A stretch of 64,000 bases of DNA from a phage, in sequence record PZ445428.1. One strand, 5' to 3'. Of this stretch, positions 3,070 to 35,261 are shown in pieces. The notes under the pieces are model-generated. The model saw only the letters and a list, made by a program, of their open reading frames with translations. It did no database searches and was not told where the DNA came from. Both the position numbers and the translations under genes were made by a program. The stretch's first letter is position 1; each line of letters opens with the position of its first letter.

Positions 3070-3327
3070 TATATTCTCCTTCTCTAACTAAGACTACTAT
3101 TATAGCTCATTTGAAGGCGTATGTCAATATAAATTTTCTAAAGAGCTAAGTAACTTGATCTGGCTCAATTTTTGGAAAATTGTTGTTGACACCTTACCCT
3201 ATTTTATACTATAATCCCGCGCCCATGTACGCGATATAAAATGATTATCTAGTATCATACATCTCCCTCTATAAGCAAGCAAATTTTTTATTTAACTGCA
3301 ATGTCATAGGCTTATTTAAAATTGTAG

Positions 3328-3356
3328 TTGCTTTTTACTGTAGATATTGGTATAAT
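3328..3356 (+). promoter_or_regulatory. sigma70-type promoter (-35 TTGCTT, 17-bp spacer, -10 TATAAT)
   Basis: Hexamers read directly upstream of phoH. Confidence 0.55.
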
Positions 3357-3429
3357 ATATTTGTAAGTTGATAAACAAGATCTTTTTGTTGATCCTCTGT
3401 TAGCGAAGTACACTATAGGAGTGTTATTT

Positions 3430-4180: not shown

Positions 4181-4423
4181 ATGGGAAATGTCGTACATCT
4201 ACATCGCAAAACTAAAATTCACCGCACTTCGCTGAGTGCTGCAAACATGATTACCCGTAAAGAGGGTGAAGAAAGTCCTAAGACTTCTCTAGCATGGAAA
4301 ATTGTAGCCTCTAATCCAAATCGACCGTTCAACTATAATGAATTGAATACTTCCGTAGATATTTTAATGGCTAAGGAAATACGAGAGAAATTAAGAGATA
4401 TGGCCGATAAAATTAAACGGTAA
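4181..4423 (+). CDS. hypothetical protein (80 aa)
   Basis: ORF track 4103..4423; start moved to ATG overlapping phoH stop (TAATATG). Confidence 0.45.
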   Translation: MGNVVHLHRKTKIHRTSLSAANMITRKEGEESPKTSLAWKIVASNPNRPFNYNELNTSVDILMAKEIREKLRDMADKIKR

Positions 4424-4430
4424 GACAGAT

Positions 4431-4465
4431 GAGCCTGGGTATGAAAATATCCGGGCTCTTTTTAT
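4431..4465 (+). terminator. rho-independent terminator
   Basis: Hairpin GAGCCTGG...CCGGGCTC followed by TTTTTAT. Confidence 0.6.
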
Positions 4466-4546
4466 CTGTAAAATTGTACTTGCATAATGACTCAAAACAA
4501 AGTAGAATATTTCCTAAATCCTGAGAACTACAAAAAGGAAACTGCA

Positions 4547-6880
4547 ATGGACTTTCGAATCACAAAAGTAATTAAACGCGACGGTACGATCCAGGACTTT
4601 GCTCCTGAAAAACTCAACGACTGGGCTGCGTGGGCATGTAAGAATGCTAACGTTAGCTGGTCTGCCGTAGTTATGGCTGCACTGAAAAATCTACCTAAAG
4701 GGGTTGTAGATTCCGATACACTTCAAGATGTATTAATCAAAGCAGCAGAAGGTTTGATCAAAGATAACCCTGCGTATGATGAAGTAGCGAAGGAATTACG
4801 TCTTGCACAGATGCGTAAACGCCTGTATGATTCCTATGAACCACCTTCTTTACGTTTCTTCCATGACCACATGGTTAAAGTTGGGGCTTGGGAAGATATG
4901 AGTGCATGGATTTCCGATGAACAGTTTGACGCTTTGAATGGTGTTATTGATCATGAACGTGATCGTCTCTTCACTAGCGGTGGTCTGAAACAGTTCTTCG
5001 ATAAGTATTCCCGTCGTAATATCGCAACTGGCGAAATTTACGAAACCCCGCAATTTGCCTACATGGGTATGGCAATGGCGATGTTATCTCAACCTAACTG
5101 GACAATTCTGGATGCAATCGACCTCTACAATGCAATGTCGCTCCATAAAATCAACGTTCCTACTCCGCCACTGGTTGGTCTGCGCTCTAGTGACCGTGGA
5201 TTTGCTAGTTGCTGCCTCGTGGATTCCACGGACACGCTGGATTCAATCGACACAGCCGAGCACATCGTTTTCAAAATGGTCGCAGCCAGAGCGGGAATCG
5301 GGTATCATCTTGAAAGCCGATCAATTGCTGATCCGGTGCGAAATGGGGCGTTCCCGCATTCCGGAAAACTGCCATATTATAGACACATCGACCGTTCAGT
5401 AAAAGCGAACACTCAGCAAACCCGTGGTGGTTCTGCTACTGTATCTTATCCGTACTTCGATCCTGAAATCATTCAGTTGATGCAGGTTAAACAGCAACGT
5501 GCTACAGACGAGAACAAAATCGATAAGATGGACTACTCTCTGAGCTTTAACAACCTTCTATTGAAACGTTATCTGAAAAACGAAGATATTACGCTCATGT
5601 CTTACTTCTATGCACCAGAAGTCCACGAAGCGTTTTATGGGGAAGATGAGGCTAAGTTTGAAGAAATCTATGTGGCAGCGGAGAAACGTGTGGCATCTCT
5701 TACAAAGATCGACCACGAAGGAAAAACAATTCCAGCAGCTCCTAAAATCCCTGCAAAAGAAATCCTAGATACTTGGTTACGTATCCGTATGGAAACAGGT
5801 CGTATGTACGCTCATCACATTGGGGAATCTAACCGTCATGGTAACTTCCTTGACCCGATTCGTATGACCAACCTTTGTGTAGAGATTACCCAGCCAACTC
5901 GTCCATTCCAGCACATTACGGAACTGTACAAAACTCCAGATCAACTGGATGATATGCGTCCAGAAGATATTGGTGAAGTATCTCTGTGTAACCTGGGTGG
6001 TGTTGTTCTAGGCCGTATGAGTTCTCTGGCAGAATGGGAGAAAACTTGCTACATCCTTCTGAAATTCGTTGATACTATCATTGAAATTCAGGACTATCCG
6101 TTCCCAACTATGGAATACACGGCTAAGAAGCGTCGTAACGTAGGTATTGGTCTGATGAATGCAGCAGGTGCAATGGCAGCAGAAGGTCTGGCTTACGAAG
6201 GTGAAGAAGCTCGTAACTGGATTCACCGTGAAGCTGAGAAGCTCTCTTACTTCCTGCATAAAGCCTCTGTACGTCTGGCAAAAGAACAAGGTGCATGTGA
6301 TTGGTTTAACCGTACCAAACCTTCTCAAGGAACTCTGGTAATCGACACCTATAAGAAAACTGTTGATGAACTGGTATCCGTAGGTCTAGAAATGGATTGG
6401 GAATCTCTGCGTGCAGATATCCTGAAATACGGTATGCGTAACTCTGTTCTGACAGCTCAGATGCCTGGTGAAAGTTCTTCTGTACTGTTAGGTGTTACCA
6501 ACTCAATTGAGCCACCTCGTAAGATTGTATCTATCAAGGGTAGTGCAGTGAACAAAGTAATTGCAATTGCTCCAGGTGCAACTGATTGGGATACTCTCAT
6601 GAGCTATAAACTAGCCTATGATGTAGATCGCATTGAGTGGATCAAGTGGGTAGCAACTATGCAGAAATTCTTCAGCCAGTCTATTAGTACGAACATGTAC
6701 TATGACTACACCAAGTTTGAGAATGAAATCATTCCTGGCCCAGTAGTAGTTCGTGATTTCATGACTGCTGTTAAGTACGGATGGAAGACTTGGTACTACG
6801 CTAACTTCAACACTGAAAACGGTGGTGGAGCAGGTGAAGAAGCCGCAGCTGGTTGTGCATCAGGTGGTTGCCAACTTTAA
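4547..6880 (+). CDS. nrdA: ribonucleoside-diphosphate reductase large subunit (class Ia)
   Basis: ORF track 4487..6880; start moved to ATG 4547 after AAGGAAA RBS (4487 possible); NLCVEI active-site region and C-terminal CASGGC tail. Confidence 0.9.
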   Translation: MDFRITKVIKRDGTIQDFAPEKLNDWAAWACKNANVSWSAVVMAALKNLPKGVVDSDTLQDVLIKAAEGLIKDNPAYDEVAKELRLAQMRKRLYDSYEPPSLRFFHDHMVKVGAWEDMSAWISDEQFDALNGVIDHERDRLFTSGGLKQFFDKYSRRNIATGEIYETPQFAYMGMAMAMLSQPNWTILDAIDLYNAMSLHKINVPTPPLVGLRSSDRGFASCCLVDSTDTLDSIDTAEHIVFKMVAARAGIGYHLESRSIADPVRNGAFPHSGKLPYYRHIDRSVKANTQQTRGGSATVSYPYFDPEIIQLMQVKQQRATDENKIDKMDYSLSFNNLLLKRYLKNEDITLMSYFYAPEVHEAFYGEDEAKFEEIYVAAEKRVASLTKIDHEGKTIPAAPKIPAKEILDTWLRIRMETGRMYAHHIGESNRHGNFLDPIRMTNLCVEITQPTRPFQHITELYKTPDQLDDMRPEDIGEVSLCNLGGVVLGRMSSLAEWEKTCYILLKFVDTIIEIQDYPFPTMEYTAKKRRNVGIGLMNAAGAMAAEGLAYEGEEARNWIHREAEKLSYFLHKASVRLAKEQGACDWFNRTKPSQGTLVIDTYKKTVDELVSVGLEMDWESLRADILKYGMRNSVLTAQMPGESSSVLLGVTNSIEPPRKIVSIKGSAVNKVIAIAPGATDWDTLMSYKLAYDVDRIEWIKWVATMQKFFSQSISTNMYYDYTKFENEIIPGPVVVRDFMTAVKYGWKTWYYANFNTENGGGAGEEAAAGCASGGCQL

Positions 6881-6889
6881 TAAAACTAA

Positions 6890-6916
6890 GGAGATCTTCG
6901 GGTCTCCTTTTTCTTT
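6890..6916 (+). terminator. rho-independent terminator after nrdA
   Basis: Hairpin GGAGATC-ttcg-GGTCTCC followed by TTTTTCTTT. Confidence 0.6.
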
Positions 6917-6926
6917 GAAATTTTAC

Positions 6927-6955
6927 TTGCTAATCGCGACCTGATTTGCTATAAT
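6927..6955 (+). promoter_or_regulatory. early promoter cassette (-35 TTGCTA, -10 TATAAT)
   Basis: Consensus hexamers with 17-bp spacer upstream of HNH/nrdB. Confidence 0.6.
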
Positions 6956-6979
6956 ATCTCTATATTAAGGAGATATACT

Positions 6980-7498
6980 GTGAAACCTCAATTAACAAAA
7001 GAATTTCTAGAGAAATACCTAGAACTCAGAGAAGATACACTCTATTGGAAGCCAAGAGAAACTAACAAGGGTGGATTTAACACTAGATTTGCTGGAAAAC
7101 CTGTAGGAGCCGTCAATGGAAATGGCTACCTATGCTTCCGACTTAATGTGGAAGGTTATAGATGGGAGTTAAGAAATCATGTAGTAATCTTCTGTCTCTA
7201 TTATGGATATTACCCTACTAAGACAGTAGATCATAAAGATACAAATAAACTTAATAACCACCCTTTAAGTCTAAGGGAATCAACCGATGCTGGTAACGCC
7301 CAAAATAGAGGAGCTGGTAAAAACAATACTCATGGGCATAAAAACCTAGAGCCTCTTAGTTCAGGAAACTGGAGGGTTAGGATAACACACAACGGTACTG
7401 TTTATAGATCTTCCGCAATGCCTTTAGAAAAAGCTCTAGAACATAGAGATATTAAACTTAAAGAATTTCATGGTGAATACGCTAATAATGGAGAATAA
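6980..7498 (+). CDS. HNH homing endonuclease (free-standing, between nrdA and nrdB)
   Basis: GTG start after AAGGAG RBS; HNH core VDHKDTNKLNNHPLSLRE; stop 3 nt before nrdB ATG. Confidence 0.7.
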   Translation: MKPQLTKEFLEKYLELREDTLYWKPRETNKGGFNTRFAGKPVGAVNGNGYLCFRLNVEGYRWELRNHVVIFCLYYGYYPTKTVDHKDTNKLNNHPLSLRESTDAGNAQNRGAGKNNTHGHKNLEPLSSGNWRVRITHNGTVYRSSAMPLEKALEHRDIKLKEFHGEYANNGE

Positions 7499-7501
7499 TT
7501 A

Positions 7502-8647
7502 ATGACAACCTTACTAAATCTGAACTGGAATCCTGATTCTGAAGAGCTATTTCTGGGTGATGCTTTGGGAGTAGCAGACTATGTTCGTGTTGCTCATCCA
7601 GAGCTAGAACGACTTGCACTATTGCAGAGGAGCCAGTTTTGGACTGAAACAGAAATCAGTCTAGAAAGTGACAAAAAGCAATGGCCTAATCTCCCAAGAG
7701 AAATACAAGAAATCACTCTGCTGAATTTAGCTTGGCAGGTTCAAACAGATTCATTTATTAGTAGAGCACCAGAAGCCGCAGTACTTCCTTTGGTTAGTCG
7801 CCCTGAGTTAGAGGGAATGCTAAAGCAGTGGAGCTACTTCGAAGATCTGCACAGCCGTGCTTATAGCAACATTATCCGTAACGTTCTGACTGATCCAGCA
7901 GAATTTATCGATTCTGTTACAAAAAACCAAGAAGCATTCGCACGTATCGCTGATTCCGTAGAACTGTTCGATGAACTGTATCAATTAGGTCAGTATTTCA
8001 TCGCAGTACGTGACCATCGTGGTGACAATACTTATCCAGAAACCGAGTTTCCTGAAGTTAAACGTGAAACTCAGGCTAAACTGTTAGATGCCTATTTTGC
8101 AATCTATGGTCTGGAAGCAATGCAGTTCTACGCATCTTTTGCTTGTACCTTTGCTCTAGCAGAAAACGATATTCTGCAAGGTATTGCTAAGAACCTGCAA
8201 TTGATTGCTAAAGATGAAGCTCTGCATACTCAAATGTCCAAAGCAGTTATCCAGATCATGTTCCAGCAGTTCGACCAAGATCTGATTGATGAAGCTCTGG
8301 CTAAAGCACCAGCGCAGCTTTTGAAAACTCTGCAAACTGAAATCAACTGGGGCCACTTTATCTTTAAAGGCCGTAGTCTGATTGGTCTGAACGCAGAACT
8401 TCTGGAAGAATACCTTTACTTTGTAGGACGTAACGCATTTATGCATATTGGCGTAGAATGGCCGAGCAATCTGCCAGTAATTACTAAGAACCCAATTCCG
8501 TGGATCATGAACTGGCTGGATACTACCTCTTTACAACCTGCTCCACAGGAAATCCAGATTGGTGCAGCTTATCGTGTAGGTCAGGTAACTGAGACTTCAA
8601 CTGATACCTTGAAAGACCTGGGTAATGAATTTGAGGGCATGTTCTAA
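7502..8647 (+). CDS. nrdB: ribonucleoside-diphosphate reductase small subunit (class Ia)
   Basis: 381-aa ORF directly after nrdA/HNH; di-iron/tyrosyl-radical subunit-like sequence. Confidence 0.85.
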   Translation: MTTLLNLNWNPDSEELFLGDALGVADYVRVAHPELERLALLQRSQFWTETEISLESDKKQWPNLPREIQEITLLNLAWQVQTDSFISRAPEAAVLPLVSRPELEGMLKQWSYFEDLHSRAYSNIIRNVLTDPAEFIDSVTKNQEAFARIADSVELFDELYQLGQYFIAVRDHRGDNTYPETEFPEVKRETQAKLLDAYFAIYGLEAMQFYASFACTFALAENDILQGIAKNLQLIAKDEALHTQMSKAVIQIMFQQFDQDLIDEALAKAPAQLLKTLQTEINWGHFIFKGRSLIGLNAELLEEYLYFVGRNAFMHIGVEWPSNLPVITKNPIPWIMNWLDTTSLQPAPQEIQIGAAYRVGQVTETSTDTLKDLGNEFEGMF

Positions 8648-9183
8648 TGATAGCAGCAATCTATGCAACTGGGCCGAAAGGGGAGTTCGGCCTCAATGGT
8701 AGACTCCCTTGGGGTTCCTTCAAAGAGGAACTAGATATATTTTATGCCACACTAGATTCTCTAGCACCTGATAACATCATCATTGGTGCAGGTACGTGGT
8801 TGGGCTTTCCTGAAACGCTTCAAAAGCGGATTTTAGGGGATTCTGATCTGTTTATTTATGCCAATGCCCACAAGCCTTTACCAGAAACTATTGGGTGCCC
8901 TACTCGAATTACTAGCATTGGGTATACTTTGCCTGAATTCTTTAAGGAAGAAGTAACAGTAGTATTGGGCGGAGCAGCTTTGCTCCTAGAGATGTATGCT
9001 AAAAATCACTTAGACATGGCATATGTTTCGACAATCGCATCAGCAACACCATTATCAGCTGATGTACACTTGCATCCACATATTACTATGACTAACTCGA
9101 TGGCAACCAGAATGGAGTATGCATCAGGGGAGAATGCGGATAAAACCCTTTCCTTCCTACAGGAGCTGGTAACGTTTAAATGA
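8647..9183 (+). CDS. frd: dihydrofolate reductase
   Basis: 178-aa ORF between nrdB and thyA; N-terminus IAAIYA..G..G.LPW DHFR-like; start overlaps nrdB stop. Confidence 0.65.
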
Positions 9184-10034
9184 AACAATATATTGAAACA
9201 GGAAAACGTATTCTCGAAGAAGGTCAGTGGGTAACTAATCCTAGAACAGGTGTACGTTGCCTCACTATTATTGATGCAGATTTCACTTTTAATGTGGGGG
9301 CTAATGAATTTCCTCTTATTACTACTCGTAAGGCATTTGCAAAACAAGCAATAATGGAAATGATTGGCTATCTACGTGGTTATGACTCCGCAGCACAATT
9401 CCGCGATATCGGGGTTAATACGTGGAACGCTAATGCAAATGAAAACCTTGCATGGTTGGATAATCCATATCGTAAAGGCGAGGATGATATGGGACGGGTC
9501 TATGGTGTTCAAGGACGTCATTGGACAAACTCTGATGGTCTTATGTTTGACCAATTATCCAAGATCTATCGTAACCTGAAAAGAGGGATTGATGATCGTG
9601 GGGAAATTCTAACTTTCTGGAATCCGGGGGAGTTCTCAAAGGGCTGCTTGCGTCCTTGTATGCACACCCATCAGTTCTCTATTCTAGGTGATACCTTATA
9701 TCTGAATTCATTTCAGAGGTCTAATGACTTCCTGCTAGGCCAGGTATTTAACATGGTTCAATGCTACGCTTTGCTTGCAATCATGGCTCAAATCACTGGA
9801 TATAAACCTGGGATCGCTCGCCAAAAGATCGTGAATCTTCACATCTATGAGAATCAGTATGAAGTTCTAATGGAACACAAACAGTTTGATCGTGAACCTT
9901 TTGAGCCGCCTCATCTGATTATTAATCCAGATATTCGAACTTTGGATGATGTATTAACTTGGGTAAGTAAGGATGATTTTACTGTTCGTGGCTATGAACA
10001 TCATCCTGCTATTGCATATCCATTTACGGTGTAA
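9180..10034 (+). CDS. thyA: thymidylate synthase
   Basis: 284-aa ORF; [10 protein letters not shown] catalytic-Cys region and QRSNDFLLG motif typical of ThyA. Confidence 0.85.
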
Positions 10035-34441: not shown

Positions 34442-34737
34442 TGAATAAGTTTACTATTGCACTGATGATTTCCGCAGTTAGTTTCAGTTCTCTGGCATCC
34501 ACCAAAGTTTCTATGAAAAATGGTAATGTTAAAGTTCAGCAGAACGGCATTACCACTGAGTATGGTAAAGTCAGATTAGTAAAGGAGCGTAATGGTAATA
34601 TAGAAATTATGACCAATAAAAACTTCTCTACTCCAGCTATTACCATTCAGCGTAACGGTAATATTACTACCCAACGTTCCAACAATTCTGACTCGTTTAC
34701 TTGTCGTTATGATTGTGGTGTGGAAGTAGAAGAATGA
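34441..34737 (+). CDS. secreted small protein (signal peptide)
   Basis: ORF track; N-terminal MNKFTIALMISAVSFSSLAS. Confidence 0.5.
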   Translation: MNKFTIALMISAVSFSSLASTKVSMKNGNVKVQQNGITTEYGKVRLVKERNGNIEIMTNKNFSTPAITIQRNGNITTQRSNNSDSFTCRYDCGVEVEE

Positions 34738-35261
34738 TTACTCAAGAAAGGTTAAAAGAACTGCTAGAGTATAATCCTGAGACAGGACAATTTACTAATA
34801 AAATCCTAAGAGGTAGACTAAAGGTAGGTGCATTTGCAGGCACGTTAAGGTCTGATGGGTATATCCAAATAAGGCTTGATAAAAAAGCATATTATGCACA
34901 ACAACTAGCTTTCCTATATATGACAGGTATACTTCCAGAGGAAGTTGATCACATTAATAGGATTAGGTCGGATAACAGATGGGTTAATCTTAGAGAATCT
35001 AACAGACAAGAAAATAGTAGAAATCGTAAATCCACTAGTAACTCTGGATACTTAGGTGTGTCTTGGAATACAAAGGCACAGAAATGGCAAGTAATGGTGC
35101 GAAATTCCACGGGAAATAATATATTTGGTGGTTATTTTAACTATGAAGATTTAGATTATGCCGTTGCTAAAGCTAATGGATTACGACTAGAATTGCATGG
35201 AACTCTAGCAGTTATCGAAGAGTTTAGCGGTTTTCCACAAGAAAGAGAGAGAAGAACGTGA
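34734..35261 (+). CDS. HNH homing endonuclease (second copy)
   Basis: ORF track 34713..35261, start moved to ATG 34734; HNH core EVDHINRIRSDNRWVNLR plus AP2-like GYLGVSWNTKAQKWQ. Confidence 0.7.
   Translation: MITQERLKELLEYNPETGQFTNKILRGRLKVGAFAGTLRSDGYIQIRLDKKAYYAQQLAFLYMTGILPEEVDHINRIRSDNRWVNLRESNRQENSRNRKSTSNSGYLGVSWNTKAQKWQVMVRNSTGNNIFGGYFNYEDLDYAVAKANGLRLELHGTLAVIEEFSGFPQERERRT

What the first reader, a model, noticed from the sequence alone, without database searches (positions are those of the whole stretch)
6980..7498. Free-standing HNH homing endonuclease inserted between nrdA and nrdB
A 172-aa HNH ORF with its own promoter cassette and GTG start occupies the nrdA-nrdB intergenic space, a classic homing-endonuclease target site in phages. 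A second HNH gene lies at 34734-35261. Both are likely mobile and may mark recombination hot spots.
Basis: partly seen in the sequence, partly recalled or inferred. Interest (0 to 1): 0.4.

Follow-up and report, generated by a model that had tools for sequence, protein, structure and literature searches.

The report
Homing endonuclease gene upstream of nrdB
This is an ordinary, already annotated selfish nuclease gene sitting between the two ribonucleotide-reductase genes of a T5-like phage; comparison with relatives shows it has moved between genomes together with the first 250 bases of nrdB, but this particular copy carries a change at an otherwise invariant active-site-motif residue.

Summary
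The window is Escherichia phage TrudiGerster (Bas27, a T5-like Epseptimavirus). The ORF at 6980-7498 is real and is already annotated bas27_0060, "putative homing endonuclease". It matches Pfam HNH_3 (2.7e-8) and PHROG 99 (3.9e-38) and lies between nrdA and nrdB.

The site is polymorphic. About 58% of roughly 450 T5-like records have an empty 103-109 nt spacer. The rest carry one of at least four HNH_3 lineages, including T5's own hegH; this lineage is in only 34 records.

Mobility is well supported. TrudiGerster's flanks are closest to a HEG-less phage, but the HEG plus nrdB nt 1-250 group with the other carriers. The HEG is under strong purifying selection (dN/dS about 0.01-0.03).

- The promoter at 6927-6955 and the terminator are also present in empty alleles. 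The promoter is therefore the resident nrdB promoter, not the HEG's own.
- TrudiGerster alone has Ser97 where 128 of 128 family representatives, and every other copy examined, have the motif Asn. This copy may be impaired.

The closest functional analogue is T4 MobE, which is unrelated in sequence. The kind of element is known and interest is low.

The parts
4487..6880 (+). nrdA (class Ia ribonucleotide reductase large subunit), the upstream neighbour. Its last ~400 nt are of the 'backbone' type, 98% identical to HEG-less phage AKM_ECS.
   Evidence: Pfam calls; segment identities; informative sites.
6888..6909 (+). nrdA intrinsic terminator hairpin followed by a T-run. It is conserved in empty, A, B and C alleles.
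   Evidence: 9-bp stem, 4-nt loop, T-run; searches show it is identical in HEG-less alleles.
6927..6955 (+). Resident nrdB promoter (-35 TTGCTA 6927-6932, 17-nt spacer, extended -10 TGcTATAAT ending at 6955). It now drives a HEG-nrdB transcript and is not part of the mobile insert.
   Evidence: the same sequence is in the HEG-less alleles L002, L020 and L006; the T5 records annotate a 'promoter' here.
6958..7501 (+). The inserted segment relative to empty alleles (544 bp). It replaces the ~46-nt nrdB 5' leader of empty alleles.
   Evidence: Alignment A1; junction sequences; spacer 621 nt against 103-109 nt.
6967..6972 (+). Shine-Dalgarno AAGGAG of the HEG, 7 nt before the GTG start.
   Evidence: Sequence; conserved in lineage A and B leaders.
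6980..7498 (+). HEG-A coding sequence (172 aa, HNH_3 family; bas27_0060).
   Evidence: dN/dS 0.01-0.026.
7229..7306 (+). HNH (His-Me finger) motif, D84-H85 ... S97 ... N106 ... N109.
   Evidence: Alignment to I-HmuI 1U3E residues 53-101; family column counts.
7268..7270 (+). Codon 97, AGT (Ser). It is AAT (Asn) in all other copies and corresponds to I-HmuI Asn87, the central N of the H-N-N motif.
7340..7474 (+). C-terminal three-strand plus helix domain (aa ~121-165), probably an AP2-like DNA-binding module.
   Evidence: It is the only confidently modelled part of the AF2 model (pLDDT 72-89). Top Foldseek hits are AP2 domains, but with E 0.06-0.17, which is not significant.
7490..7493 (+). GGAG inside the last HEG codons (..N-G-E-stop). 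It serves as the new Shine-Dalgarno for nrdB, 8 nt before the ATG at 7502.
   Evidence: Sequence; the same arrangement is seen in lineages B and C and in L042.
7502..7750 (+). HEG-A-linked nrdB 5' haplotype (inferred co-conversion tract or cleavage-immune allele). It is 96% identical to other HEG-A carriers but only 70-81% identical to empty alleles.
   Evidence: (sharp switch between 7750 and 7753).
7607..7636 (+). Candidate position of the HEG target in HEG-less alleles (nrdB nt 106-135). It has the densest A/B/C-versus-empty differences, including synonymous codon-family switches. It is homologous to the T4 MobE nick region.
   Evidence: MobE data from PMC2790892. This is an inference, not shown.
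7502..8647 (+). nrdB, the downstream neighbour, co-transcribed with the HEG.
   Evidence: No + strand promoter-like or terminator-like site lies between 6956 and 7502.
34734..35261 (+). Second HNH_3 gene (bas27_0147, 175 aa), a distant paralogue (28% identity) with an intact D-H...N...N motif.

Best explanation
The ORF is a free-standing homing endonuclease gene of the HNH_3 / I-HmuI-like group of His-Me finger nucleases, called lineage 'A' here. It is inserted between the -10 box of the resident nrdB promoter and the nrdB start codon. It is transcribed from that promoter as the first cistron of a HEG-nrdB mRNA, and its last codons supply the GGAG ribosome-binding site for nrdB, so nrdB expression is preserved. 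In mixed infections the enzyme is inferred to nick or cut HEG-less T5-like genomes in the first ~100-250 nt of nrdB. Recombinational repair from the HEG-bearing genome then copies the HEG together with the adjoining nrdB 5' segment, whose many substitutions make the donor allele immune. Shown here: family membership, sporadic distribution, the empty site, the mosaic patch, and purifying selection. Inferred: cleavage, its position, and immunity. The TrudiGerster copy carries N97S at an invariant motif residue, so it may be a recently weakened or dead copy of an otherwise active lineage.
For: Family: Pfam HNH_3 2.7e-8 and PHROG 99 3.9e-38. The D84-H85...N106...N109 residues align to I-HmuI D74-H75...N96...N99. 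There are 16,586 related cluster representatives.

Site polymorphism: spacers are 103-109 nt in empty alleles against 572-623 nt in occupied ones. In an evenly spaced sample, 30 of 49 sites are empty. Record counts are A 34, B (T5 hegH type) 75, C about 32 and D 46, out of about 440-460 records.

Mobility: TrudiGerster's nearest relative is HEG-less AKM_ECS in the last 400 nt of nrdA (98.0%), nrdB nt 300-1146 (93.3%) and td (95.1%). In nrdB nt 1-250 the nearest relatives are HEG-A carriers (96.4%), against about 72% for AKM_ECS. From 6488 to 6942, 27 of 29 informative sites are backbone-type. From 7507 to 7750, 55 of 59 are HEG-A-type, with a switch at 7753. HEG-A carriers are polyphyletic on the backbone tree but monophyletic on nrdB nt 1-250.

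Selection: TrudiGerster and SH9 differ at 23 nt but only 1 aa (dN/dS 0.011). Against EH7 there are 76 nt and 8 aa differences (0.026). A 73%-identical homologue occupies the same site in a phage whose nrdB is only ~63% identical at the DNA level.

Expression: the terminator and promoter are shared with empty alleles, and no other + strand promoter or terminator site lies between 6956 and 7502.

Target: A, B and C each have their own nrdB 5' haplotype over 150-250 nt, while the upstream flank shows no differentiation. Differences peak at nrdB nt 106-135 and include CGT->AGG and TCT->AGC synonymous recoding. T4 MobE, also located between nrdA and nrdB, nicks T2 nrdB at nt 122-126 (PMC2790892). 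That position is homologous to nt ~119-123 here.
Against: No cleavage, nicking or homing has been measured for this protein, for T5 hegH ('P-' means putative) or for any HEG at this site in T5-like phages. Ser97 replaces an Asn that is invariant in 128 of 128 representatives, so this copy may be inactive. The shared right-hand boundary of the A haplotype at ~7750 in all carriers could reflect a single ancient import of a divergent block followed by ordinary recombination, rather than repeated homing. The AF2 model is poor (pLDDT 47.7), so the fold is supported by sequence only. The A-type nrdB haplotype also occurs without HEG-A in two phages, so linkage is not absolute. dN/dS as low as that of nrdB is unusual for a purely selfish gene and may indicate an additional benefit to the phage.
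Confidence: 0.85

Rival explanations
1. This particular copy is a recently inactivated relic. The lineage is a homing endonuclease, but TrudiGerster's N97S substitution at the Omega-loop Asn of the H-N-N motif has abolished or strongly reduced catalysis. The gene now persists only by linkage to nrdB, which needs its 3' end as a ribosome-binding site and has no other promoter-proximal leader.
For: Ser97 (AGT) is unique to TrudiGerster. The residue is Asn (AAT) in 9 of 9 other HEG-A copies, in P0001 and P0002, and in 128 of 128 family representatives, which is as invariant as the catalytic His85. It aligns to I-HmuI Asn87. It is the only non-synonymous change among 23 differences from the SH9-type gene, so it arose on the terminal branch. 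From general knowledge, not tested here: alanine substitutions of the equivalent Asn in colicin E9 and in Cas9 (N854A) cripple HNH cleavage.
Against: Ser is a small polar residue that could partly replace the Asn hydrogen bonds. There are no other signs of decay: no frameshift or stop, and the RBS is intact. A single A->G sequencing or passage artefact cannot be excluded. No biochemical data are available.
Confidence: 0.4
2. The HEG homes, but its cleavage site is at the insertion point itself (the nrdB leader between the -10 box and the ATG, which the insert disrupts) rather than inside nrdB. On this reading the divergent nrdB 5' block is merely hitch-hiking DNA from a distant original donor.
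For: Lineages A, B and C share exactly the same left junction (TATAATAT|CT...), and all of them replace the same ~46-nt leader. For all carriers the A block ends at the same place, ~7750, as expected for a single imported heterology block whose crossovers resolve in the first good homology. Classic intron- or intein-type HEGs cut at their insertion site.
Against: Free-standing phage HEGs, including MobE at the analogous locus, typically cut tens to hundreds of nt from their gene (PMC2790892). Three independent lineages (A, B, C) each carry a different recoded nrdB 5' segment, with differences peaking at the same nt 106-135 and including multi-nucleotide synonymous codon-family switches. That pattern is hard to explain by hitch-hiking alone. 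A more distant carrier of the same HEG lineage (L042) is not the source of the A block.
Confidence: 0.3
3. It is a domesticated, non-mobile HNH nuclease that serves the phage (for example in DNA processing, nicking, or exclusion of competitors) and is retained by ordinary selection. Its patchy distribution would then reflect gene loss.
For: dN/dS of 0.01-0.03 equals or beats that of nrdA (0.06) and nrdB (0.01-0.03). The lineage is as conserved (73% aa) as its host genes between distant phages. The gene is embedded in the nrdB transcription unit.
Against: Only 34 of ~450 relatives have it, and most have a clean empty site. Four or more non-orthologous HNH lineages alternate at the same spot. 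Carriers are polyphyletic on the backbone, and the gene lies in a sharply bounded mosaic patch. None of this fits a vertically inherited housekeeping gene. A competitive benefit in co-infection is not distinct from homing.
Confidence: 0.07

Closest known systems
Phage T4 MobE (free-standing HNH homing endonuclease between nrdA and nrdB; Wilson & Edgell 2009, PMC2790892)
   Same: It occupies the same genomic niche, the nrdA-nrdB gap of a lytic coliphage. It has no promoter of its own and depends on a neighbour's transcription. MobE nicks the nrdB 5' region (T2 nrdB nt 122-126) and its recombination point lies within the first 189 nt of nrdB. Here the HEG-linked haplotype covers nrdB nt 1-250, and lineage-specific differences peak at nt 106-135, the homologous position.
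   Different: There is no detectable sequence similarity. MobE belongs to His-Me group 1 (Pfam HNH), whereas this protein belongs to group 2 (HNH_3, I-HmuI-like). [quoted passage not shown] Activity has been demonstrated for MobE but not for this protein.
Phage T5 hegH (putative H-N-H endonuclease P-TflVIII) and AKFV33 ORF96
   Same: They share the same family (HNH_3, PHROG 99-type architecture) and the same insertion point between the nrdB -10 box and the ATG in T5-like phages. The leader and RBS are homologous between lineages A and B. The literature already calls this a HEG hot spot (PMC3326045).
   Different: Protein identity is only 29% to T5 hegH and 36% to the STWB21/AKFV33 type. Each is linked to a different nrdB 5' haplotype. 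All of them are putative; none has been assayed.
I-HmuI (PDB 1U3E), an intron-encoded HNH nicking homing endonuclease of Bacillus phage SPO1
   Same: It is the only solved structure detected by sequence. The D-H...N...N motif aligns residue for residue over 50 aa, and it belongs to the same His-Me group 2.
   Different: The match is weak (E=0.048). I-HmuI is intron-encoded, whereas this gene is free-standing. The C-terminal DNA-binding part differs (AP2-like here). The Asn87 equivalent is Ser in this copy.
T5 F-TflI/II/IV (tRNA-region HNH endonucleases; Akulenko et al. 2004, cited)
   Same: They are experimentally shown site-specific endonucleases encoded by free-standing genes in T5. HEG presence or absence is the main source of differences among T5-like genomes (PMC10644984).
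   Different: They occupy different loci (the tRNA region). F-TflIV is placed in His-Me group 1. The sequence relationship to this ORF was not tested here.

Membership tests
HNH_3 / I-HmuI-like group of His-Me finger nucleases (Pfam PF13392) | Profile match above the curated threshold | tested here: met
   PF13392 scores 33.8 bits against a cut-off of 24.8, E=2.7e-8, over aa 67-107. PHROG 99 scores 3.9e-38 over aa 1-171.
HNH_3 / I-HmuI-like group of His-Me finger nucleases (Pfam PF13392) | Catalytic His at the end of strand 1, preceded by an acidic metal ligand (I-HmuI D74-H75) | tested here: met
   D84-H85 align to D74-H75. The columns are H in 128 of 128 and D in 126 of 128 representatives.
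HNH_3 / I-HmuI-like group of His-Me finger nucleases (Pfam PF13392) | Central Asn of the H-N-N/H motif in the loop between the two strands (I-HmuI N87) | tested here: not met
   It is Ser97 (AGT) in this copy. It is Asn in 9 of 9 other HEG-A copies, in P0001 and P0002, and in 128 of 128 representatives. The lineage meets the criterion; this copy does not.
HNH_3 / I-HmuI-like group of His-Me finger nucleases (Pfam PF13392) | Metal-binding Asn in the helix (I-HmuI N96) | tested here: met
   N106 aligns to N96 and N109 to N99. The columns are Asn in 119 of 128 and 128 of 128 representatives.
HNH_3 / I-HmuI-like group of His-Me finger nucleases (Pfam PF13392) | Beta-beta-alpha-metal fold | tested here: inconclusive
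   The AF2 model was built from a 4-sequence alignment: mean pLDDT 47.7, with the HNH region below 50. No significant Foldseek hit was found.
HNH_3 / I-HmuI-like group of His-Me finger nucleases (Pfam PF13392) | Accessory DNA-binding module (NUMOD/HTH/AP2) | tested here: inconclusive
   Residues 121-165 are modelled confidently as three strands plus a helix. The top Foldseek hits are AP2 domains (prob ~1.0) but with E 0.06-0.17. No Pfam AP2 hit was found.
Free-standing homing endonuclease gene (functional class) | Stand-alone ORF, not within an intron or intein, in an intergenic gap between conserved genes | tested here: met
Free-standing homing endonuclease gene (functional class) | Presence/absence polymorphism at the same locus among close relatives, with a clean empty site | tested here: met
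   34 carriers among ~450 records. Empty spacers are 103-109 nt, and alternative HEG lineages occupy the same site.
Free-standing homing endonuclease gene (functional class) | Co-conversion of flanking markers, with HEG phylogeny discordant from the backbone | tested here: met
   The mosaic patch spans about 6958-7750. The backbone is closest to a HEG-less phage. Carriers are polyphyletic on the backbone and monophyletic on nrdB nt 1-250.
Free-standing homing endonuclease gene (functional class) | Site-specific cleavage or nicking of the HEG-less allele, and resistance of the HEG-bearing allele | not testable with these tools
   Only indirect evidence is available: lineage-specific recoding of nrdB nt 106-135.
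T4 MobE family | Sequence homology to MobE | tested here: not met
   BLASTP gives no meaningful alignment (best 6 of 19 identities, E=0.04 for a single comparison). The two proteins fall in different His-Me groups.
T4 MobE family | Promoterless and co-transcribed with nrdA | tested here: not met
   An nrdA terminator (6888-6909) and the nrdB promoter (6927-6955) lie between nrdA and the HEG. The HEG is likewise without a promoter of its own, but it borrows the nrdB promoter.
T5 hegH (P-TflVIII) orthologue | Same insertion junctions and close sequence identity | tested here: not met
   The junction is the same, but protein identity is only 29% and there is no DNA match in blastn 'distant' mode. 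It is a sister lineage, not an orthologue.

The most novel reading that the evidence does not exclude
The 104-nt nrdA-nrdB spacer of T5-like phages may be a battleground where at least four HNH_3 lineages compete. Lineages A, B and C would each be locked to a cognate, recoded 'immune' nrdB 5' haplotype, and all would aim at the same ~30-nt stretch of nrdB just upstream of the conserved FW-T-E-T-E codons. That is the same stretch nicked by the unrelated T4 MobE, which would make this convergent targeting across phage families. Lineage D, inserted on the other side of the promoter, would displace resident A or B genes and leave orphan immune haplotypes behind, as seen in phage 1-23, mar003J3 and L030.
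Probability: 0.3. Interest if true: 0.5.

Novelty: already known. Interest (0 to 1): 0.22.

Why it matters
The practical value is mainly in annotation and phylogenetics. The HEG and the first 250 nt of nrdB should be excluded from backbone trees of Epseptimaviruses. The promoter should be assigned to nrdB. Some deposited records over-extend this ORF.

Biologically, the locus offers a compact natural system for studying competition between homing endonucleases and target-site immunity. It has several HEG lineages, cognate nrdB haplotypes, abundant empty sites, and phages available in the BASEL collection. It also provides a natural N97S variant for testing the role of the motif Asn. None of this changes current understanding of homing endonucleases.

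Tried and rejected
(1) Homology to T4 MobE: none was found, so the parallel is functional or positional only.

(2) Structure: the search for homologous proteins returned only two clusters. The resulting 4-sequence AF2 model was poor (pLDDT 47.7), and the Foldseek PDB search gave no significant hit, only suggestive AP2 domains. The fold is therefore not used as evidence.

(3) Donor of the A-type nrdB 5' block: the metagenomic phage L042 carries the 73%-identical HEG at the same site. It is equally distant from the A and empty haplotypes (0.68 against 0.676), so it is not the source.

(4) Pfam at E<=10 gave no AP2, NUMOD or other DNA-binding domain.

(5) Literature: no experimental paper was found on T5 hegH/P-TflVIII or on any nrdA-nrdB HEG of T5-like phages. 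The only paper in the library that mentions TrudiGerster is unrelated. One search failed on a term that was too short.

(6) The first MAFFT run timed out and was repeated with faster settings.

Only residues 53-101 are verified, and only those are relied on.

(8) The idea that the HNH makes T5's genomic nicks, or has another housekeeping role, was considered. It was rejected because of the sporadic distribution.
Full report
**Identity of the window and check of the observation**

The nrdA-nrdB stretch of the window (4487-8647) is 100% identical to Escherichia phage TrudiGerster. This is Bas27, MZ501108.1, a T5-like member of Demerecviridae, Markadamsvirinae, Epseptimavirus. The ORF at 6980-7498 (+, GTG start, 172 aa) exists as described. 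In the public record it is bas27_0060, "putative homing endonuclease".

The ORF matches Pfam HNH_3 at 33.8 bits against a cut-off of 24.8 (E=2.7e-8) and PHROG 99 "HNH endonuclease" at 3.9e-38 over its full length. Its neighbours are confirmed as NrdA (4487-6880) and NrdB (7502-8647). The second ORF at 34734-35261 is also HNH_3 (2e-13; bas27_0147). It is the only other HNH_3-type ORF in the window.

**Anatomy**

After the nrdA stop comes a terminator hairpin with a T-run (6888-6909). Next is a strong sigma-70-type promoter, TTGCTA-17-TGcTATAAT (6927-6955). AAGGAG lies at 6967-6972 and the GTG start at 6980. The HEG stop is at 7496-7498, and the nrdB ATG follows at 7502. The GGAG at 7490-7493, inside the last HEG codons (N-G-E-stop), is the only Shine-Dalgarno available to nrdB.

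The alignment with relatives shows that the terminator and promoter are not part of the insert. HEG-less alleles such as Salmonella phage vB_SenS-AKM_ECS carry the same terminator and promoter, followed by a ~46-nt leader and nrdB. The insert begins right after TATAATAT (about 6958) and ends at the nrdB ATG. The HEG has become the first cistron of the nrdB transcript. No other + strand promoter-like or terminator-like site lies between 6956 and 7502.

**Polymorphism of the site**

Among 38 sequenced loci, the nrdA-nrdB spacer is either 103-109 nt (empty) or 572-623 nt (occupied). A blastn search with an empty-allele query listed rows at even steps down the ranking. It gave 30 empty and 19 occupied sites among 49 T5-like records with both flanks.

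Occupied sites hold at least four HNH_3 lineages that share only 29-36% protein identity:
- Lineage A is the TrudiGerster/SH9 type (172 aa), found in 34 records.
- Lineage B is the type of T5's own hegH, "putative H-N-H endonuclease P-TflVIII", found in 75 records.
- Lineage C is the STWB21/AKFV33/Spc35 type (165 aa), found in about 32 records.
- Lineage D is the EPS7/FFH_1 type (160-168 aa), found in 46 records.

These counts are out of roughly 440-460 records that carry the junction. Lineages A, B and C share exactly the same left junction after the -10 box. Lineage D is inserted elsewhere in the spacer, between the nrdA stop and the nrdB promoter, and leaves the nrdB leader intact.

The next-best protein homologue of A in the phage collection is only 42% identical.

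**Evidence of mobility**

Sliding-window comparisons across 39 loci show two things. The upstream flank (nrdA 3' end, terminator, promoter) shows no differentiation linked to A, B or C. The first ~250 nt of nrdB form a haplotype specific to the HEG lineage. Identity between A and empty alleles there is 70-81%, against a 90-95% background. Lineages B and C have their own haplotypes over about 150 and 200 nt.

For TrudiGerster itself, the closest relative in my sample is the HEG-less phage AKM_ECS in three flanking segments:
- the last 400 nt of nrdA (98.0%);
- nrdB nt 300-1146 (93.3%);
- td (95.1%).

In nrdB nt 1-250 the closest relatives are the other HEG-A carriers (96.4%), and AKM_ECS drops to about 72%.

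Informative sites give sharp boundaries. From 6488 to 6942, 27 of 29 sites are backbone-type. From 7507 to 7750, 55 of 59 sites are HEG-A-type, with a switch at 7753.

On a neighbour-joining tree of backbone sequence, HEG-A carriers fall in at least four separate places, interleaved with empty, C and D phages. On nrdB nt 1-250 they form one clade, as do the B and C carriers. This is the expected footprint of homing with co-conversion of the downstream flank.

**Selection**

TrudiGerster's HEG differs from the SH9-type gene at 23 of 519 nt but at only one residue (dS 0.23, dN 0.0025, ratio 0.011). Against EH7 there are 76 nt and 8 aa differences (ratio 0.026). These ratios are as low as those of nrdA (~0.06) and nrdB (0.01-0.03).

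A 73%-identical homologue (P0002) sits at the same position, promoter-HEG-nrdB, in metagenomic T5-like contigs whose nrdB is only ~63% identical at the DNA level. The lineage is therefore maintained as a working protein.

**The motif substitution**

The single amino-acid difference from the other HEG-A copies is Ser97 (AGT, 7268-7270) instead of Asn (AAT). In the phmmer alignment to the solved I-HmuI structure (1U3E), D84-H85 align to D74-H75, position 97 to Asn87, N106 to Asn96 and N109 to Asn99. Position 97 is thus the central Asn of the H-N-N motif. The His-Me finger classification places this Asn in the loop between the two strands (PMC5714182).

Position 97 is Asn in 9 of 9 other HEG-A copies and in P0001 and P0002. 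It is also Asn in 128 of 128 family representatives of 240 aa or less drawn from an exhaustive HMMER search. That makes it as invariant as the catalytic His85.

The change is derived and specific to TrudiGerster, and the gene shows no other sign of decay. From general knowledge, not tested here, alanine substitutions of the equivalent Asn cripple other HNH nucleases. I therefore put about 0.4 on this copy being impaired.

**Likely target and the MobE parallel**

T4 MobE is a free-standing HNH gene between nrdA and nrdB. It lacks its own promoter, nicks the non-coding strand of T2 nrdB at nt 122-126, and yields recombination points within the first 189 nt of nrdB (PMC2790892). MobE shows no sequence similarity to this protein and belongs to a different His-Me group.

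Differences between the A, B and C consensus sequences and the empty allele peak at nrdB nt 106-135 (window 7607-7636), just upstream of the invariant TGG ACT GAA ACT GAA block. They include synonymous codon-family switches such as CGT->AGG, TCT->AGC and CTC->TTA, each needing two or three substitutions. This suggests selection on the DNA sequence rather than on the protein.

Aligning T4 and TrudiGerster NrdB places the MobE nick position at about nt 119-123 of the T5-like gene, inside this segment. I therefore infer that the A, B and C enzymes cut HEG-less nrdB in this region and that the linked haplotypes confer immunity. This is not shown.

The main alternative is cleavage at the insertion point, with the divergent block merely hitch-hiking. 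It is not excluded. All A carriers share the same block end near 7750, which is what a single imported heterology block would give.

**What was already known**

The gene is annotated in GenBank. The T5 genome lists hegH at this site. The AKFV33 paper explicitly notes a homing endonuclease between nrdA and nrdB in T5-like phages, compares it with T5 P-TflVIII and mobE, and calls the region a hot spot (PMC3326045). [quoted passage not shown]

What this analysis adds is comparative:
- the promoter assignment to nrdB;
- the lineage-specific nrdB haplotypes;
- the mosaic boundaries;
- the N97S substitution.

I found no experimental work on any HEG at this site in T5-like phages.

**Structure attempt**

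Only two related clusters were returned by the word-indexed protein search, so the AlphaFold2 alignment had four rows. The model was poor (mean pLDDT 47.7). Only residues 121-165 were confident, as three strands plus a helix. The best Foldseek matches to this model are AP2 domains, but E is 0.06-0.17. This is compatible with the known HNH_3 + AP2 architecture but is not proof of it.

**Verdict**

The element is a known kind at a known hot spot, so interest is low (0.22).

The most novel reading that remains open is competition between lineages with cognate immune haplotypes, convergent targeting with MobE, and displacement of A or B by D. It rests on orphan haplotypes in phage 1-23, mar003J3 and L030 and would need wet-lab tests.

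Noticed in passing
L048 (Salmonella phage 1-23) 952-1749; L049 (vB_Eco_mar003J3) 952-1749; L030 4396-5250: These loci show 'orphan' immune haplotypes. Phage 1-23 and mar003J3 carry the A-type nrdB nt 1-250 haplotype (94-98% identical to the window) but no HEG-A. L030 carries the B-type haplotype without HEG-B. All three have a D-type HNH right after the nrdA stop and an intact empty-type nrdB promoter and leader. This suggests that D homing can delete a resident A or B gene.
   Followed up: partly
L009, L031, L030 spacer (about 4394-5000); compare window 6881-6957: The D-type HNH lineage is inserted at a different point in the same 104-nt spacer, between the nrdA stop and the nrdB promoter. 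It has its own hairpin after nrdA. It shows differentiation of the upstream flank (53% identity to empty alleles at 6887-6936) rather than of the nrdB 5' end.
   Followed up: partly
L003 3440-3470; L022 4490-4515: In the C lineage (STWB21, AKFV33) the HEG ATG starts only 6 nt after the -10 hexamer (TATAATATCTACATG). The HEG is therefore probably translated from a leaderless mRNA.
   Followed up: no
window 34734-35261: The second HNH_3 gene (bas27_0147, 175 aa) is 28% identical to the first and has an intact D-H...N...N motif. The surrounding 2.2 kb is fully matched only in TrudiGerster. In phage SP3 the homologous span is ~512 nt shorter, consistent with absence of the gene. Many relatives have unrelated DNA of similar length there.
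   Followed up: partly
L049 2646-3158; window 8647: mar003J3 has a further HNH gene (hegJ_1, 'P-TflX') between nrdB and frd. In the window, nrdB and frd abut (share base 8647), so that site is empty here.
   Followed up: no
window 3070-3420 (nrdD-phoH divergent intergenic region); L035 1-697, L036 1-603, L038 297-788, L039 643-786: Several relatives carry nuclease ORFs in or next to the nrdD-phoH gap: a GIY-YIG gene in HZ_ZJUN2, a 'putative endonuclease' in EH7, an unnamed 164-aa ORF in gmork, and an HNH fragment in SE24. The window has none there.
   Followed up: no
window ~8800-9900 (frd and td): Identity to many relatives collapses to 43-60%, while a few (AKM_ECS, L031) stay at 90-95%. There appear to be two deeply diverged allele classes of frd/td, forming another mosaic block downstream of nrdB.
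   Followed up: no
L042 1688-4924; row H108 (SelmaRatti): nrdA of some relatives is enlarged: NrdA is 1078 aa in metagenomic L042, and SelmaRatti is annotated as intein-containing. nrdA in the window (797 aa) has no such insert. L042 also has an additional HNH_3 gene upstream of nrdA.
   Followed up: no
L037 4379-5041 (rokbiter_80); P0001 (misterkot_77, 220 aa): Some deposited annotations extend the HEG-A ORF 48 codons upstream, through the nrdA terminator and nrdB promoter and overlapping nrdA. EH3 and EH7 leave the gene unannotated.
   Followed up: yes
L035 (vB_EcoS_HZ_ZJUN2) nrdB nt 1-250: This HEG-A carrier has a chimeric nrdB 5' haplotype. It is A-like at the start, but it has the B-type CAA->GCT (Gln->Ala) codon 42 and lacks the AGG AGC recoding.
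   Followed up: no
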